64,000 bases of DNA from Phyllobates terribilis. Taxonomy: Eukaryota. This document shows positions 15,001 through 57,000 of the stretch, piece after piece. The stretch spans positions 25,110,001 through 25,174,000 of the forward strand of contig NW_027362764.1 of assembly GCF_046119375.1 (NCBI RefSeq). The letters run 5' to 3'. Made by a program: the position numbers. Position 1 is the first letter of the stretch. Each line of letters begins with the position of its first letter.

Positions 15001-18000
15001 TGGGGTCCATCCAAGAAATCCTCTTACCCTTGTGAAAATAAAAAATTGTGGCTAAAACATTATGTGGACAAAGTTTTTTTTTTTTTTTTTTTTAATTTTC
15101 ACGGCTCCATGTTATAAACTTCTCCAAGGTACCTGGGGGTTCAGGGTACTCACCATGCATCTAGATAAGTTCCCTGAGGGGTCTAGTTTCCAAAATGGAG
15201 TCACTTGTGGGGGGTTTCCACTGTTTGGGGAGCCCCTGATGTGCCTAAACGCATAATGGCGTCCGCTAATTATTCAAGCAAATTTTACATTCAGAAAGTC
15301 AAATGGCGCTCCTTCCCTTCCGAGCCCTGCCGTGCGCCCAAACAGTGGTTTTTCCCCACATATGGGGTATCTGCTAACTCAAGAGAAATTGCACAACAAA
15401 TTTTAGGGTCCATTTTTTCCTGTTACCCCTGCGCAAATAAAAAAAATATTGGGTCTAAAGTAACATTTTTGTGAAAAAAGTTAAATGTTAATTTTTTTTT
15501 CTTTCACATTCCAAAAATTCCTGTGAAGCACCTGAAGGGTTAATAAAGTTCTTGAATGTGGTTTTGAGCACCTTGAGGGGTGCAGTTTTTAGAATGGTGT
15601 CACTTTTGGGTATTTTCTGTCGTAAAGACCCCCTCAAAGTGACTTCAAATGTGATCTGGTCCCTAAAAAAAAAATGTTTTTTGTAAATTTTGTTGGAAAA
15701 ATGAGAAATCGCTGGTCAACTTTTAACCCTTATAGCTCCCTAATAAAAAAAAAATAAAAATTTGGTTCCAAAATTGTGCTGATGTAAAGTAGACATGTGG
15801 GAAATGTTATTTATTAACTATTTTGTGTGCTCAATGATGACATTGGGGGGGCGCTGTGACAATGTAGAGTCAGTCTGGGTAAATGTACATGGGGATGGCC
15901 ATAATGGAAAGCTGCTGATTGGAGTTTGTTACAAGCCTCCTCATATAGCTGAGCTTGTAGGGGATGAAATGCTGGAGCAAATTAAAAATGCAGCAAATAA
16001 TAATAGGGTCCTTATTATGGGGGATGGTAACTATCCAGATACTCAATGGGACATAGTATCGTCCGGTTTTGCTAAAAGTTCTTATCTACAGTTCAGAACA
16101 ATGACCTCTCTCAGCTGTAGATGAACCGACCAGGGGAGGTGCTCTGCTGGGTCTGGTGCTCTGCTGGGTCTGGTGCTCTGCTGGGTCTGGTTTCAAATCT
16201 ACAAGTCCGGGAGTATTTGGAAAACAGCGACCATAATATGGTAAGATTCAATGTAATATTTAAAAAAAAAAAAAGAGAAATGCAAAAACCTGGAATTTAG
16301 GAAAGCTGATTTCAGCAAATTAAGGGAAGAGCTTAATCATGTAGACTGGGACCATGTCATGGTAACTGGGGATACCGAACATACAAGTGCGCTCACTAAA
16401 TTAGAATATCATCAAAAAGTTTATTTATTTCAGTTCTTCAATACAAAAAGTGAAACTCCTATATTATATACACTGTGTTCCAAATTATTATGCAAATAAT
16501 AGTTTCTCAGATTTTCCCAAATTCCCTATATGAATTGCAGTCATTGTAATTTTCCAGTCAAATAACTATTAGAGGACAATTGAAAGGTTTTTGTATAATC
16601 TGCCGATGATAACAGGATATTTTTAAAAAATAAAACACTCAAGCTGCACTCAAAATGCATGTTCCAAATTATTATGCACAGCAGAGTTTTCAACCTTTTC
16701 ATTTTAATAAAGAACAAAAAAATGGTAATTTTTGCAATTATAAGCATTAGCAGGTTATTACACACTGAAATCAAACAGTTTACAACTCAAAACTTTATTC
16801 TAGGTGATGTTACATTTGCACATAGGACCCCTTGTTGGAAAGGAGCTTCTGAACTCTCTCGCCCATTGAATTTGTCAGGTTTTGGATGGTTTCTGCTTCA
16901 ATTGTTTTGCATGAGGACAGAATACCCTCCCAGAGCTGTTGCTTAGATGTGAACTGCCTCCCGCCATCATAGACACTCCTTTTGATGATGCTCCAGAGGT
17001 TCTCAATGGGGTAGAGGTCAGGGGAGCATGGGGGTCACACCATAAGTTTGTCCCCTTTTATGCCCATAGCAGCCAGAGATGCAGATGTGTTATGTGCAGC
17101 ATGAGACGGGGCATTATCATGCATGAAATGATCTCGATGGTCCAGATGGATGGAGTGGAGGATGGCTGGTTGATGGACACCTCATGCAAACACGGCTACG
17201 GCGCCAACAAGGAGGAGGTGGAGTAATGTTTTGGGCTGGAATCATGGGGAGAGAGATTGTCGGCCCTTTTAGGATCCCTGAAGGGGTAAAGATGAACTCC
17301 ATAATGTATGTTGAGTTTCTCAAACAGCACTTCCTTCCATGGTTCAAGAAGAAGAACCGTGTATTCCGCAGCAAGATCATTTTCATGCATGATAATGCCC
17401 CGTCTCATGCTGCACATAACACATCTGCATCTCGCTGCTATGGGCATAAAAGGGGACAAACTTATGGTGTGGCCCCCATGCTCCCCTGACCTCAACCCCA
17501 TTGAGAACCTCTGGAGCATCATCAAAAGGAGTGTCTATGATGGTGGGAGGCAGTTCACATCTAAGCAACAGCTCTGGGAGGGTATTCTGTCCTCATTAGT
17601 GTTGAGCGATACCTTCCGATATCAGGAAATATCGGATCGGATTGGACCGATTCCGATACCGGAAACCAATGCAAGTCAATGGGACACAAATATCGGAATG
17701 AAAATAAACCCTTTCTTTCCTTGTAGGTTAATTCTACATGAAGGAAAACAACTAACAATAATGTAAAATGTATTGGGGGAGGTGGTTGCCCAAATCGATG
17801 GGAACAGTGCTCACAGTGAAACATGAAAAGCGGCAATTCAGCAGCGGCATACACCGGTACCCGACAATTTAGAACAGAAAGAATAGAGCATCACACATAG
17901 ATTAGATAGATAGAAACATGCCAGTCACATATATAAGAAGTACAGTGATAGTGTTGCTTACTGTACTTGTCATTTAGTGTTAAAGGATTTATTAAAAAAA

Positions 18001-54000: not shown

Positions 54001-57000
54001 TCCTCTCTGTATCTGATATCGGGCTTCGGCACTGGCCTCTCCTCCTCTCTGTACCTGATATAGGTACTGGCCTCTCTTCCTCTCTGTATCTGATATCGGG
54101 GATCGGCACTGGCCTCTCCTCCTCTCGGTATCTGATATCGGCACTGGCCTCTCCTCCTCTCTGTATCTGATATTGGGGGTCGGCACTGGCCTCTCCTCTC
54201 TGTATCTAATATCGGGCTTCAGCACTGGCCTCTCCTCCTCTCTGTATCTGATATCGGGGGTCAGCACTGGCCTCTCCTCCTCTCTGTATCTAATATCGGG
54301 CTTCGGCACTGGCCTCTCCTCCTCTCTGTACCTGATATAGGTACTGGCCTCTCCTCCTCTCTGTATCTGATATCGGGGGTCGGTACTGACCTCTCCTCCT
54401 CTCTGTATCTGATATCGGTACTGGCCTCTCCTCCTCTCTGTATCTGATATCGGCACTGGCCTCTCCTCCTCTCTGTATCTGATATTGGGGGTCGGCACTG
54501 GCCTCTCCTCCTCTCTGTATCTGATATTGGGGGTCGGTACTGGCCTCTCCTCCTCTCTGTATCTGATATCGAGGTAGTCACTGGCCTCTCCTCCTCTCTG
54601 TATCTAGTATTGGCACTGCCCTCTCTTCCTTTATGTATCTAATATTGGGGGTCAGCACTGGCATCTCTTCCTCAGTATCTAGAGGTTCGGCACTGGCCTC
54701 TCCTCTTGGTATCTAATATCGGGGATCGGCACTGGCCTCTCCTCCTCTCTGTATCCGATATCCGGGGTCAGCACTGGCCTCTCCTCTCGGTATCTGATAT
54801 CGAGGTTCGGCACTGGCCTCTCCTCTCGGTATCTAATATCGGGCTTCGGCACTGGCCTCTCCTCCTCTCTGTATCTGATATCGGGGTTCAGTACTGGCCT
54901 CTCCTCTCGGTATCTAATATCGGGCTTCGGCACTGGCCTCTCCGCCTCTCTGTATCTGATATCGGGGTCGGTACTGGCCTCTCCTCCTCTCTGTATCTGA
55001 TATCACCTCTCATGTTTTCCATCATCTGATGAAGAGTCCGACCTCCGACGCTTTTCCTTTTTCACTTTCTTTTCTTTCTTCCTTTTCTTCTTTTTCTCCT
55101 TTTTTGCCTTTTTCCTGCCCTCTGACCTGTAACACAGAAATTCCCAAACACTTTAAGGGTTGCTCCACTCACAGGGTCCGCACCCATCAGTATATAGTCA
55201 CTGTGATCATGGCAGCCCCACTCCACCCATTGTGATCACCTCGCCGGCGTCTCATCTTCGCTCTTCTCCACTGCCTGTTTCTTGTTCGGAAGATTCTCCC
55301 GCTCTCCAGTTTTCTGATGCTACAGATGGAAAGAAGAGGTCAGCGCTGGGGGAGGGGTGATTAACCCCTCTTGATCTGTATATCCATACACCGTGCTATA
55401 TTTCTCATGTATAGAAGAGATAAACCCAAAAGTCAACAGGACTGGTCACAGCCATAATGAAATGTCCAGTCATGTGACTGACAGAAAGTAAAGGCCCCCC
55501 CACCCCAGCGAGCTGTACAGGTCACTGCCCCCCGGACATCACCGGGCTCAGACTTACGGTGAAGATGGAGAAGCCCATCTTTGCTGCCTCCTTATCTTCT
55601 TTAGAAAGGGTCACCCGGTTTGCGGAGACGCTGCAGGCGACAATCACACGAGATTACAACATGGCACGAGTGCACGATGATACAAGCGCCTGAACCCCCG
55701 AGTATCGTGGCGTCTCCACTACACGCCATCTCACCTGGAGGTCCCCAGGCCCAGCACCCGGTCCACACCGCGCTCATCCCTCTCCGATCCCTCCCGCTTA
55801 CAGGCCTCTGCGAATTCCTAAATCACACAGGAAGGAGCCATCAGCCATGACTGTGCTTAGCTCTGGCATCTCAACGGAGGAGGGGCCCCTGTGTGTGTGT
55901 GTCAGGGGGAGGGGCTCCTGTGTGTCAGAGCCGGGGGGGAGGGGCTCCTGTGTGTGTGGGTGTCAGGGGGAGGGGCTCCTGTGTGTCAGAGCCGGGGGGA
56001 GGGGCTCCTGTGTGTGTGTGTCAGAGCCGGGGGGAGGGGCTCCTGTGTGTGTGTCAGAGCCGGGGGAGGGGCTCCTGTGTGTGTGTGTGTCATAGCCGGG
56101 GGGAGGGGCTCCTGTGTGTGTGTGTCAGAGCCGGGGGGAGGGGCTCCTGTGTGTGTCAGAGCCGGGGGGAGGGGCCCGTGTGTGTGTGTGTGTCAGAGCC
56201 GGGGGGAGGGGCGCCTGTGTGTGTGTGTGTGTGTCAGAGCCGGGGGGAGGGGATCCTGTGTGTGTGTCAGAGCCGGGGGGAGGGGCTCCTGTGTGTGTGT
56301 GTGTCAGAGCCGGGGGGAGGGGCTCCTGTGTGTGTGTGTGTGTGTGTGTGTGTGTGTGTGTGTCAGAGCCGGGGGGAGGGGGTCCTGTGTGTGTGTGTCA
56401 GAGCCGGGGGGAGGGGGTCCTGTGTGTGTGTGTCAGAGCCGGGGGGAGGGGCTCCTGTGTGTGTGTGTGTGTCAGAGCTGGGAGGGAGGGGCTCCTGTGT
56501 GTGTGTCAGAGCTGGGAGGGAGGGGCTCCTGTGTGTGTGTGTGTCAGAGCCGGGGGGAGGGGCTCCTGTGTGTGTCAGAGCCGGTGGGAGGGGCCCCTGT
56601 GTGTGTGTGTGTGTCAGAGCCGGGGGGAGGGGCCCGTGTGTGTGTGTGTGTGTGTGTGTGTGTGTCAGAGCCGGGGGGAGGGGTTCCTGTGTGTGTGTCA
56701 AAGCCGGGGGGAGGGGCCCCTGTGTGTGTGTGTGTGTGTGTCAGAGCCGGGGGGAGGGGCTCCTGTGTGTGTGTGTGTGTGTCAGAGCCGGGGGGAGGGG
56801 ATCCTGTGTGTGTGTGTCAGAGCCGGGGGGAGGGGCTCCTGTGTGTGTGTGTGTGTGTGTGTGTGTGTGTCAGAGCCGGGGGGAGGGGCTCCTGTGTGTG
56901 TGTGTGTGTGTGTGTGTGTGTGTCAGAGCTGGGAGGGAGGGGCTCCTGTGTGTGTGTGTGTGTCAGAGCCAGGGGGAGGGGCTCCTGTGTGTTTGTGTGT

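What the first reader, a model, noticed from the sequence alone, without database searches (positions are those of the whole stretch)
16139..55004. Window-wide pattern: microhomology-bounded 17-90 bp segments of ordinary sequence repeatedly become minisatellites
Seen: the single-copy progenitor context is still visible for the 17-bp (CR1, x3), 21/22-bp (transposase, x14), 32-bp (TIR, x16 and x145), 31-bp (transposase ATG, x51) and probably 42-bp (splice donor) arrays; the 90-bp UTR repeat just upstream is a similar young expansion. About a dozen unrelated units occur in 64 kb. Inference: a regional or lineage-specific mutational process (microhomology-mediated tandem duplication followed by runaway amplification) converts TEs into satellites, which in turn attract new TEs. 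This feedback loop is the best candidate here for an undescribed system.
Basis: inference. Interest (0 to 1): 0.65.

Follow-up and report, generated by a model that had tools for sequence, protein, structure and literature searches.

The report
Minisatellite-rich region riddled with Tc1 transposons
More than half of this stretch of vertebrate DNA is short tandem-repeat arrays, several of which grew out of pieces of jumping genes, but the pattern matches known ways that such repeats arise and is not a new system.

Summary
The arrays are real. Tandem arrays of 13 different units cover 35,395 of 64,000 bases. Four units do come from transposable elements:
- 17 bp lies in a CR1/L2-like LINE endonuclease region.
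- 21/22 bp comes from the C-terminal codons of a Tc1-like transposase.
- 31 bp spans another Tc1 start codon.
- 32 bp sits at both ends of one Tc1 element.

Five of 9 sharp-edged arrays end in a 3-8 nt partial copy, against 1.8 expected (P=0.02). That fits birth between short direct repeats.

- This two-step origin is the published Haber-Louis / microhomology-mediated tandem duplication model. Transposon-derived minisatellites in recombination-rich chromosome ends are already described in frogs.
- 86% of the non-array DNA here lies inside transposons, so a transposon origin is the default, and 9 of 13 units show no transposon origin.
- The "attraction" is three Tc1 insertions at TA sites in one TA-rich 45-bp satellite. 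TA availability explains it (P=0.26), and the loop is never closed.

One new detail: the 32-bp unit contains 9 nt of host flank. It was therefore probably born in place across a transposon/host junction and then copied to the other inverted repeat.

Verdict: ordinary, a new member of a known kind.

The parts
1..8490 (.). 39-bp array, about 223 copies, running off the left end of the window. No visible progenitor.
   Evidence: TRF, 91% matches.
9501..9832 (.). 90-bp array x3.7, made of two diverged 45-bp halves. A young higher-order expansion of an older eroded repeat.
   Evidence: TRF rows with periods 90 and 45. Degenerate copies in both flanks, z 4.9 and 4.3.
11196..12256 (.). 36-bp GC-rich array x30, ending in a 5-nt partial copy (GCGTC).
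   Evidence: Clean flanks.
15783..16383 (+). 5' part of a CR1/L2-like LINE ORF2 (endonuclease region). It resumes at 29501.
   Evidence: Exo_endo_phos_2, E 3.4e-4, below the curated cut-off. The reading frame runs continuously across the insertion once one TA is removed.
16138..16191 (+). 17-bp perfect triplication plus a 3-nt partial copy (GGT), inside the LINE ORF.
   Evidence: TRF, 100% matches. k=3.
16384..29498 (.). 13.1-kb composite built on a palindromic Tc1 derivative (two inverted 3' halves), inserted in the LINE with a TA duplication. It carries two nested insertions.
   Evidence: Inverted matches of 97-99%. DDE_3 fragments on both arms. TA at 16382-83 and 29499-500.
22657..29416 (+). 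Tc1-like element nested in the right arm of the composite. TA duplication at 22655-56 and 29417-18. It carries four internal tandem duplications.
   Evidence: HTH_Tnp_Tc3_2, E 1.1e-9. Inner inverted repeats 91% identical over 90 nt. Empty site visible in the other arm.
22669..23194 (+). 32-bp array x16 in the left inverted repeat, bounded on both sides by the same 14 nt. Its units carry the right-end type terminus.
24165..24191 (+). 14-bp two-copy duplication in the transposase ORF (PIENLW codons).
   Evidence: TRF, 100% matches. Translation.
24292..24596 (+). 21/22-bp array x14 derived from transposase codons HRLIASM, ending in a 6-nt partial copy (GCCACA).
   Evidence: Intact homologues P0110 and P0112.
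24796..29425 (-). 32-bp array x145 at the right inverted repeat. The last 9 nt (29417-29425) are host flank, and each unit repeats them.
   Evidence: 103 of 112 anchored units hold the exact junction motif.
30622..31632 (.). 31-bp (22/31 mixed) G-rich array, ending in a 3-nt partial copy. No visible progenitor.
32905..46232 (.). One TA-rich 45-bp satellite (4,947 b of array) split into four blocks: 32905-33443, 34588-35493, 39385-42493 and 45840-46232.
   Evidence: TRF gives the same unit in all four blocks. The phase is continuous across three insertions once one TA is removed.
33444..34587 (+). Internally deleted Tc1-like element inserted at a TA of the 45-bp satellite.
   Evidence: HTH_Tnp_Tc3_2, E 5e-18. 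Termini and TA duplication.
35502..39316 (.). Large palindromic element (arms about 1.1 kb, 96-98% identical) sitting in the satellite, with a Tc1 element (35669-37270, minus strand) nested in its left arm.
   Evidence: Self-inverted match 37270-39152 and arm match 35502-35667 / 39151-39316. TA duplication and empty site in the other arm. HTH_SB and DDE_3.
42494..44137 (-). Tc1-like element with 210-bp inverted repeats (94%), inserted at a TA of the satellite.
44187..45839 (-). Tc1-like element with 211-bp inverted repeats (98%) and a 266-aa open transposase piece. It lies one satellite unit (49 b) from the previous element.
47434..49069 (.). 22/27-bp G-rich array with eroded edges.
   Evidence: Flank z 3.3 and 2.6.
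49328..49922 (.). 60-bp array x9.9 with degenerate copies beyond its edges.
   Evidence: Flank z 2.8 and 4.2.
50642..53769 (+). Decayed Tc1-like element hosting the 31-bp array.
   Evidence: Inverted ends 84% identical. Termini read. Weak HTH_SB and DDE_3 matches.
51019..52616 (+). 31-bp array x52 made of the 5' leader plus the first seven codons of the transposase. It ends in an 8-nt partial copy, of which 6 of 8 nt match.
53827..55004 (.). 42-bp array x29, 80% matches. Origin unresolved.
55919..63999 (.). 35/37-bp G-rich array mixed with (TG)n, running off the right end. Contains an assembly gap, left untouched.
   Evidence: Eroded left edge, z 13.6.

Best explanation
The window is a piece of a tandem-repeat-prone, transposon-filled chromosomal domain of a cold-blooded vertebrate (fish or amphibian; not human). 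Short segments of whatever sequence lies there get tandemly duplicated and then amplified.

**Step 1 (inferred).** A first duplication arises between short direct repeats of about 3-8 nt, by replication slippage or microhomology-mediated repair.

**Step 2 (partly shown by array anatomy).** The array grows and homogenises by unequal exchange or slippage of one to many units.

Most local non-array DNA is Tc1-like transposon or LINE, so several arrays carry transposon sequence: transposase codons, the start-codon region and an inverted-repeat end.

The 32-bp array was born in place across the junction between a Tc1 end and its host flank. It was later copied into the opposite inverted repeat by homology-driven transfer.

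Separately, Tc1-like elements, which integrate at TA, landed repeatedly in the one satellite that is very TA-rich. These are two ordinary processes sharing a region, not a coupled loop.
For: **Array anatomy**
- Arrays and copy numbers. Coverage 55%.
- Terminal partial copies of 3, 3, 5, 6 and 8 nt occur in 5 of the 9 arrays with clean flanks, against 1.84 expected if the phase were random (P=0.020). The chance of 3 nt or more after a blunt duplication is 1/64 per array.
- The four arrays with non-small remainders among the eroded set (90, 60, 22/27 and 35 bp) have degenerate copies in their flanks.

**Transposon-derived units**
- The 22-bp variant of the 21/22-bp unit reads HRLIASM (my reading). 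The flanks read ITPQQ and DAVIDA, matching intact transposases P0110 and P0112.
- The 31-bp unit holds the transposase ATG.

**Birth of the 32-bp array in place**
- The other arm of the palindromic host element shows the empty site.
- The 9 nt after the element's last base (a TA plus 7 nt) are host sequence, and they recur in the units: 103 of 112 anchored units hold the exact motif.
- The left terminus 12-mer occurs once in the window. Its reverse complement is absent from the right array even at up to 2 mismatches.
- Left-array units nevertheless carry the right-end type terminus, and they are bracketed by the same 14 nt.

**Later growth**
- Multi-unit variant strings recur within the x145 array, and each of the two arrays has private variants.

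**TA targeting**
- Three Tc1 elements in the 45-bp satellite have TA duplications and exact phase continuity.
- The satellite has 200 TA per kb, the highest of the arrays.
- It holds 988 of the window's 3,833 TA dinucleotides. 3 of 7 insertions fit that share (P=0.26) but not its length share (P=0.013).

**Literature (passages seen)**
PMC13167724, PMC10794172, PMC9659126, PMC12628747, PMC8934666, PMC4079207.
Against: - Over all 13 measured arrays the excess of 3-8 nt partial copies is not significant (5 observed, 2.7 expected, P=0.11). The choice of the 3-8 nt band and of the 'clean flank' subset was made after seeing the data.
- No single-copy allele or orthologue was available, so pre-existing direct repeats are inferred, not seen.
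- The left flank of the 21/22-bp array lacks two bases expected from the homologues. One of the 8 nt pairs of the 31-bp array is only 6 of 8 identical.
- The measured partial copy of the right 32-bp array is 1 nt. The 4-nt repeat is inferred from the better-kept left inverted repeat.
- The 9-nt host/unit identity lies in A/T-only sequence, where chance matches are likelier than 4^-9.
- The 4.6-kb 32-bp array is also TA-rich (156 TA per kb) yet has no insertion.
- No DNA of other copies of these transposon families could be searched, so arrays inherited from the family cannot be excluded for the 21/22-bp and 31-bp arrays.
- Regional excess over the genome background was not testable.
Confidence: 0.7

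Rival explanations
1. The arrays inside the transposons are features of those transposon families. Like Tetris, Galileo or miDNA4, the elements arrived already carrying tandem repeats, and only the copy number changed locally.
For: - Both inverted repeats of one element carry the same unit with the same inner boundary to within 3 nt.
- Transposons with tandem repeats inside their inverted repeats are documented (passages of PMC4079207, and PMC12628747).
- For the 21/22-bp and 31-bp arrays nothing dates the birth relative to insertion.
Against: - The 32-bp unit includes 9 nt identical to the host flank at this very site.
- The right end has no counterpart of the left terminal 12-mer.
- The TA duplication and host flank are intact to the base.
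- Intact protein relatives have the HRLIASM stretch once. That shows only that the array is derived, not where it arose.
Confidence: 0.15
2. A regional mutational process preferentially turns transposons into satellites, and these satellites then attract further transposons, which feed new satellites.
For: - 4 of 13 units are transposon-derived.
- 3 of 7 Tc1 insertions lie in a satellite that is 7.7% of the window (P=0.013 by length).
- One Tc1 element holds four separate tandem duplications.
Against: - 86% of non-array DNA is within transposon boundaries, so there is no excess over opportunity.
- The insertion excess disappears when TA content is the null (P=0.26).
- The recipient satellite shows no transposon origin, and the transposon-derived arrays have no insertions.
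- Each half of the loop is already described separately.
Confidence: 0.1
3. Expansion is motif-driven. Segments that contain certain short motifs (ACAG, AGGG, a GGAGGGGC core) are preferentially broken or recombined, so they become arrays. That would make this a hotspot-sequence effect, not microhomology alone.
For: - ACAG occurs in 10 of 13 units, AGGG in 6 and TGGG in 4.
- 6-mers shared by 3 or more units: 12 against 5.0 in shuffles (P=0.004). 7-mers: 4 against 0.45 (P=0.006).
- The same three tetramers are reported enriched in frog subtelomeric tandem repeats, with breakage at motifs offered as an open alternative (PMC10794172 passages).
Against: - The shuffles kept only base composition.
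- The maximum sharing of 4-mers is only marginal (P=0.039), and the 5-mer and 6-mer maxima are not significant.
- Three of the units (90, 60 and 35 bp) may simply be related (z 3.1-4.2).
- The 31-bp start-codon unit has none of the three tetramers.
Confidence: 0.2
4. Assembly artefact. Array lengths or junctions are products of mis-assembly of long repetitive reads.
For: - An assembly gap sits inside the last array.
- Arrays of 4-8 kb are hard to assemble.
Against: - The arrays have structured variant patterns.
- Junctions with flanks are exact, with TA duplications and phase continuity.
- Artefacts would change copy numbers, not the existence or origin of the arrays.
Confidence: 0.05

Closest known systems
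Haber-Louis model of minisatellite birth / microhomology-mediated tandem duplication (MTD)
   Same: - A non-repeated segment bounded by a short direct repeat is duplicated and then expands.
- The array ends in one extra copy of the short repeat. Here that is 3-8 nt in 5 arrays.
- PMC13167724 (passages) gives the same 1.6% chance expectation for repeats of 3 nt or more.
   Different: - The published tests are mostly in microbes and at 1x to 2x or 3x. Here arrays reach 14-145 copies in a vertebrate.
- The single-copy state is inferred, not observed.
Transposon-derived minisatellites of frog extended subtelomeres (Bredeson et al. 2024, PMC10794172)
   Same: - High density of arrays: 55% here, against a 10.67% genome average reported for X. 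tropicalis.
- Arrays derive from portions of transposons, including CR1.
- ACAG, AGGG and TGGG are present in the units.
- Expansion is attributed to unequal exchange in recombination-rich ends (passages).
   Different: - The organism and chromosomal position of this window are unknown. The nearest named transposase relatives are mostly fish.
- Tc1-derived units are not among the examples in the passages I saw.
Tetris and Galileo foldback-like transposons; Xenopus miDNA4 and Xstir
   Same: Tandem repeats occupy the inverted repeats of a DNA transposon and can grow into satellite-like arrays (PMC4079207 passages; PMC9659126 table; PMC12628747 passages).
   Different: - There the repeats are a family feature carried by many copies.
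- Here the unit contains host flank, so it looks born at one insertion site and then copied to the other end of the same element.
TA and AT-rich target preference of Tc1/Sleeping Beauty elements
   Same: All Tc1 insertions resolved here have TA duplications. The three in the satellite sit in its run of alternating TA. Sleeping Beauty prefers TA embedded in AT-rich DNA (PMC8934666 passages).
   Different: The preference was measured for an engineered fish element in human cells, not for these families.

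Membership tests
Microhomology-mediated tandem duplication / Haber-Louis minisatellite birth | The array equals n units plus one extra copy of a short (3 nt or more) repeat that also starts the unit. | tested here: met
   Met for 5 arrays: 17 bp (3 nt), 31 bp G-rich (3 nt), 36 bp (5 nt), 21/22 bp (6 nt) and 31 bp at the ATG (8 nt, 6 of 8 matching). Not met for the other 8 measured arrays, 4 of which have eroded edges.
Microhomology-mediated tandem duplication / Haber-Louis minisatellite birth | The single-copy progenitor shows the short direct repeat on both sides of the future unit. 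| tested here: inconclusive
   There is only protein-level support for the 21/22-bp unit: homologues read CH...MP, which can encode the repeat. No single-copy DNA allele or orthologue was available.
Microhomology-mediated tandem duplication / Haber-Louis minisatellite birth | The excess of microhomology exceeds chance. | tested here: inconclusive
   5 of 13, P=0.11. 5 of 9 clean-flank arrays, P=0.020. The band and the subset were chosen after looking at the data.
Transposon-derived minisatellite or satellite | The unit is homologous to part of a transposable element. | tested here: met
   Met for 4 of 13 units (17, 21/22, 31 ATG and 32 bp). No transposon origin was seen for the other 9.
Transposon-derived minisatellite or satellite | The same segment is single-copy in other members of the transposon family. 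| tested here: met
   Protein level only, and only for the 21/22-bp unit: P0110 and P0112 have the stretch once. The DNA level is not testable, because no eukaryotic DNA collection was open.
Tc1/mariner DNA transposons | A DDE transposase with paired HTH domains, terminal inverted repeats and a TA target duplication. | tested here: met
   - Pfam HTH_SB, HTH_Tnp_Tc3_2 or DDE_3 in 8 of 17 ORFs and in further fragments.
- Inverted repeats 84-98% identical.
- TA duplications read at 6 elements. The seventh (50642-53769) has TACA on both sides.
Frog extended-subtelomere satellite domain | The locus lies within the terminal tens of Mb of a frog chromosome, with a high recombination rate. | not testable with these tools
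   There is no genome, map or organism name. Named transposase relatives include fish and frogs.
Frog extended-subtelomere satellite domain | Dense arrays enriched in TGGG, AGGG and ACAG, some derived from transposon fragments. | tested here: met
   55% array coverage. ACAG in 10, AGGG in 6 and TGGG in 4 of 13 units. 4 units are transposon-derived.
Foldback-like transposons with repeat-filled inverted repeats (Tetris, Galileo) | Tandem repeats in both inverted repeats, as a feature shared by copies of the family. | tested here: inconclusive
   Repeats are present in both inverted repeats. The host-flank content of the unit argues against a family feature. Other copies could not be examined.

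The most novel reading that the evidence does not exclude
This domain undergoes template-switching replication or repair at an unusually high local rate, producing both tandem and palindromic duplications. The evidence consistent with that:
- One 1.6-kb Tc1 element acquired four separate tandem duplications.
- A minisatellite was born across a transposon/host junction and was then transferred to the element's other inverted repeat.
- Three large palindromes lie within 25 kb.
- Unrelated units share ACAG/AGGG-type motifs.

If a defined motif or protein drives this, it would be a sequence-directed generator of minisatellites, not passive slippage.
Probability: 0.12. Interest if true: 0.55.

Novelty: new member of a known kind. 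Interest (0 to 1): 0.22.

Why it matters
The window is a compact, readable record of how minisatellites start. Arrays are caught with their parent sequence still legible: a transposase reading frame, a start codon and a transposon/host junction. That is useful teaching and benchmarking material for repeat annotation and for models of repeat birth.

The junction-born 32-bp array that then spread to the opposite inverted repeat is a neat, testable example of array transfer between inverted repeats.

None of this changes current understanding. The birth model, transposon-derived satellites, region-restricted expansion and TA-targeted Tc1 insertion are all in print.

Tried and rejected
- **Organism.** Three protein searches were run. 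The array-bearing transposase piece had a best identity of 61%; named hits were carp, pike, Labeo and one poison frog. The GDSL-like ORF gave 2 proteins among 86 candidates, neither from a named organism. A young Tc1 transposase had a best identity of 87%; named hits were mostly ray-finned fish, with frogs at 49-56%. None pins the lineage, so I say only fish or amphibian, not human.
- **Same-family single-copy comparators within the window.** Self-BLAST of the array-masked window found no second copy of either array-bearing Tc1 family. The other Tc1 copies belong to different families with different C-termini.
- **Splice-donor origin of the 42-bp array.** Pfam found nothing in the flanking ORFs (0 families for the 7 ORFs at 54960-55847). 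I left it unresolved.
- **Rfam and tRNA scans**: 0 matches, so no tRNA-derived SINE is visible.
- **Dating arrays against their host elements by inverted-repeat identity.** Rejected as unreliable. The nested Tc1 has 91% identical inverted repeats, yet it sits in one arm of a palindrome whose arms are 97-99% identical.
- **Excision-footprint reading of the 'empty site'.** Considered and judged less likely. It needs the palindrome to post-date the insertion and a non-canonical 7-nt footprint. It is not excluded.
- **Not attempted, and why.**
  - Structure, complex and atlas tools: no open protein question.
  - Supplementary tables of PMC10794172: closed. They may already list some of these units.

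Full report
**What is there**

TRF reports 89 rows that reduce to about 20 arrays of 13 distinct units. Together they cover 35,395 of 64,000 bases, and 17,430 of the 38,866 bases of the finding's span.
- 17 bp x3.2
- 21/22 bp x14.3
- 32 bp x16.4, and x145.0 in inverse orientation
- 31 bp x52.3
- 42 bp x29.5
- 90 bp x3.7

The window has one assembly gap (61584-61738), which I left alone. Overall CpG observed/expected is 0.52. I do not take it for human. It carries at least seven Tc1-like DNA transposons, some with 98% identical inverted repeats, and a CR1/L2-like LINE.

The nearest named relatives of two transposases are ray-finned fish, with a few frogs. The lineage stays open between fish and amphibian.

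**The non-array sequence**

Pfam finds Tc1-type domains (HTH_SB, HTH_Tnp_Tc3_2, DDE_3) in 8 of 17 long ORFs and in more fragments (6 of 100 and 4 of 65 shorter ORFs had any hit).

Self-comparison of the array-masked window and reading of the junctions give this nesting:
- A CR1/L2-like ORF2 (15783-16383, resuming at 29501) is split by a 13.1-kb composite (16384-29498) with a TA duplication. Removing one TA restores the LINE reading frame.
- The composite is a palindromic Tc1 derivative made of two inverted 3' halves.
- Its right arm is interrupted twice: by a 4.6-kb block of inverted segmental duplications (17597-22205), and by a Tc1-like element (22657-29416) that carries four internal tandem duplications.
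- Further along, one 45-bp satellite (32905-46232) is cut into four blocks. The interrupting pieces are three Tc1-like elements and one large palindromic element, which itself has a Tc1 nested in one arm.
- A seventh, decayed Tc1 (50642-53769) holds the 31-bp array.

Within the finding's span, 18,737 of 21,767 non-array bases (86%) lie inside transposon boundaries.

**Are the parent sequences visible?**

*21/22-bp array: yes.* The left flank translates to ...KATWASITPQQ and the right flank to ...DAVIDA.... The 22-bp variant of the unit, read by eye in frame with the right flank, gives HRLIASM. The intact relatives P0110 and P0112 read ...WASITPQQCHRLIASMPRRI(D/A)AVIHAKGAPTKY.

*31-bp array: yes.* The unit is the leader plus ATG and six more codons. 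The ORF after the array reads MKTKENSRQVRDKVIDKYKSGLG and has a weak Sleeping Beauty HTH match.

*17-bp triplication: plausible.* It lies in the LINE ORF, between a sub-threshold endonuclease match and a conserved-looking SDH motif.

*32-bp arrays: yes.* They occupy the outer ends of both inverted repeats of one element.

*42-bp array: unresolved.* The 'splice donor' reading could not be checked.

*90-bp array: no.* It is a young higher-order copy of an older eroded 45-bp repeat, not ordinary sequence.

*The remaining units.* The other seven units (39, 36, 31 G-rich, 45, 22/27, 60 and 35 bp) show no parent sequence. The 90-, 60- and 35-bp units share a GGAGGGGC core, so 'unrelated' is slightly overstated.

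**Microhomology**

If a unique segment bounded by a short direct repeat is duplicated, every later array equals n units plus one copy of that repeat. I phased both edges of 13 arrays against their consensus. The remainders were as follows.

| Array | Remainder |
|---|---|
| 17 bp | 3 nt (GGT) |
| 31 bp G-rich | 3 nt |
| 36 bp | 5 nt (GCGTC) |
| 21/22 bp | 6 nt (GCCACA) |
| 31 bp at ATG | 8 nt (6 of 8 identical) |
| left 32 bp | 14 of 32 |
| right 32 bp | 1 |
| 14-bp duplication | 13 of 14 |
| 22/27 bp | 21 of 22 |
| 45 bp | 32 of 45 |
| 60 bp | 57 of 60 |
| 90 bp | 60 of 90 |
| 42 bp | 26 of 42 |

- Under a random-phase null, 2.7 arrays should fall in the 3-8 nt band. Five do (P=0.11).
- Four arrays have degenerate copies beyond their TRF edges, so their phase carries no information.
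- Against a blunt-duplication null, each case of 3 nt or more has probability 1/64.
- I chose the band and the subset after seeing the values, so this is supportive, not decisive.
- No single-copy allele was available. The pre-existence of the short repeats is inferred.

**The 32-bp arrays in detail**

- *The empty site.* The untouched arm of the palindromic host shows it. The filled arm has a TA on each side of the insert.
- *Host flank inside the unit.* The nine bases following the element's last base (TATATAATA, that is the TA plus seven host bases) are host sequence. The same nine bases sit inside the repeat unit: 103 of 112 anchored units of the right array hold the exact 18-nt junction motif.
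- *What the unit is made of.* It is therefore the last 23 nt of the element plus 9 nt of this particular flank. That is hard to explain unless the array was born here, after insertion, across the junction.
- *The bounding repeat.* It would be about 4 nt. It is kept at the inner boundary of the left inverted repeat and is mutated on the right. Only 1 nt is measurable there.
- *The left terminus.* The element's left terminus is a different 12-mer. It occurs once in the window and has no reverse-complement counterpart in the right array, even with two mismatches.
- *The left array.* Its 16 units nevertheless carry the right-end type terminus and the host 9-mer. They are bracketed on both sides by the same 14 nt. 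I read this as homology-driven copying of units from the right array into the left inverted repeat.
- *Variants.* The two arrays share their main variants, and each has private ones. The large array contains recurring multi-unit strings, the signature of unequal exchange of several units at once.
- *Caveats.* The 9-mer is A/T-only, so chance identity is less improbable than 4^-9. A non-canonical excision footprint in the 'empty' arm is not excluded.

**Do satellites attract transposons?**

- Three Tc1-like elements sit in the 45-bp satellite with TA duplications. The satellite phase continues exactly across each one once a TA is removed.
- All three lie in the unit's run of alternating TA.
- The satellite has the highest TA density of any array (200 per kb). 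It holds 988 of the window's 3,833 TA dinucleotides and 310 of its 497 TATATA/ATATAT hexamers.
- Three of seven Tc1 insertions in it is unlikely by length share (P=0.013) but unremarkable by TA share (P=0.26).
- Sleeping Beauty-type transposases integrate at TA within AT-rich DNA (passages of PMC8934666).
- The other four Tc1 insertions went into a LINE, another Tc1, a palindromic element and unannotated sequence.
- The satellite that receives insertions has no demonstrable transposon origin. Its left edge abuts an element with inverted ends (31778-32902), a link I did not resolve.
- The transposon-derived arrays have no insertions, although the 32-bp array is also TA-rich (156 per kb). The proposed loop is not closed anywhere in the window.

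**Is the transposon origin special?**

No excess is needed. With 86% of non-array DNA inside transposons, a process that duplicates whatever is there will mostly hit transposons. Only 4 of 13 units, and 7,732 of 17,099 array bases in the span, lie within transposon boundaries.

**Comparison with what is known**

- PMC13167724 (passages) states the Haber-Louis proposal that tandem repeats start from non-repetitive segments flanked by short microhomologies. It reports microhomology arms at most duplication loci, against a 1.6% random expectation for 3 nt or more.
- PMC10794172 (passages) describes frog chromosome ends dense in satellites. There, arrays derive from portions of SINE, CR1 and Kolobok elements and are expanded only in the subtelomeric copies. 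TGGG, AGGG and ACAG are enriched, and unequal crossing over is proposed as the driver.
- Here ACAG occurs in 10, AGGG in 6 and TGGG in 4 of 13 units. Shared 6-mers and 7-mers exceed composition-only shuffles (P=0.004 and 0.006).
- PMC9659126 and PMC12628747 (passages) review transposon-to-satellite conversion, including Xenopus Xstir and miDNA4, and nested-insertion 'graveyards' as satellite sources.
- PMC4079207 (passages) describes tandem repeats inside the inverted repeats of Tetris and Galileo.
- I saw only the passages returned by the find calls for these papers. Supplementary tables were closed. Those of PMC10794172 may already list some of these units.

**Verdict**

It is, however, the standard model acting in a known kind of repeat-prone region, and the feedback loop is not supported.

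The one detail I did not find in the passages read is a minisatellite born across a transposon/host junction and then copied to the element's other inverted repeat. My five literature searches were not aimed at that point, so I do not claim it is absent from print.

**Left open**
- Regional or lineage specificity.
- The density of such arrays elsewhere in the genome.
- Other copies of the transposon families. No eukaryotic DNA collection was available.

Noticed in passing
window 8564-8992 (+): Arf-family ORF covering profile positions 84-173 only, with an in-frame stop at 8807-8809. It begins about 75 b after the 8.5-kb 39-bp array ends. It looks like a truncated or pseudogenised small-GTPase gene. 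The 90-bp repeat lies about 500 b downstream of it.
   Followed up: partly
window 12664-13140 (+): 159-aa open frame with a sub-threshold GDSL-lipase match. The large protein collection held only two relatives among 86 candidates (72% and 69% identity over about 55% of the query), neither from a named organism.
   Followed up: partly
window 35502-39316: Large palindrome: 37270-39152 is its own reverse complement at 96%, and the arms extend to 35502-35667 and 39151-39316 at 98%. It is inserted in the 45-bp satellite and has no protein domain of its own. A Tc1 element is nested in one arm, with the empty site preserved in the other.
   Followed up: partly
window 16384-17596 with 22206-22656 and 29417-29498: A Tc1 derivative built of two inverted copies of the transposase 3' half plus the end (arms 97-99% identical), not a normal element with short inverted repeats.
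   Followed up: partly
window 17597-22205: A 4.6-kb insert made of inverted segmental duplications (for example 21004-21994 against 18816-17831 at 96%). It contains 121-123-bp units that are themselves hairpin-like and occur in 2-3 tandem copies (18821-19195, 20725-20969). No protein domain was found.
   Followed up: no
window 24165-24191: A perfect two-copy 14-bp duplication in the transposase ORF of the element that already carries three arrays. Its junction resembles part of the 32-bp unit (my reading; untested).
   Followed up: no
window 9501-9832, 30622-31632, 47434-49922, 55919-63999: All strongly G-rich arrays have their G-rich strand on the plus strand (positive GC skew of 0.25-0.54 in those intervals). 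A shared polarity of this kind is recalled for subtelomeric minisatellites in mammals; I did not check that recollection.
   Followed up: no
window 31778-32902: An element of about 1.1 kb with 140-nt inverted ends (86% identical) ends 2 b before the left edge of the 45-bp satellite. Whether the satellite began at this junction is open.
   Followed up: no
window 55540-55600 (-): Read by eye, the minus strand has an open stretch ending at a GTAAGT-type donor, suggesting a host exon between the 42-bp and 35-bp arrays. Pfam found nothing in the ORFs there.
   Followed up: no
window 61584-61738: An assembly gap of 155 N inside the 35/37-bp array. Left untouched.
   Followed up: no
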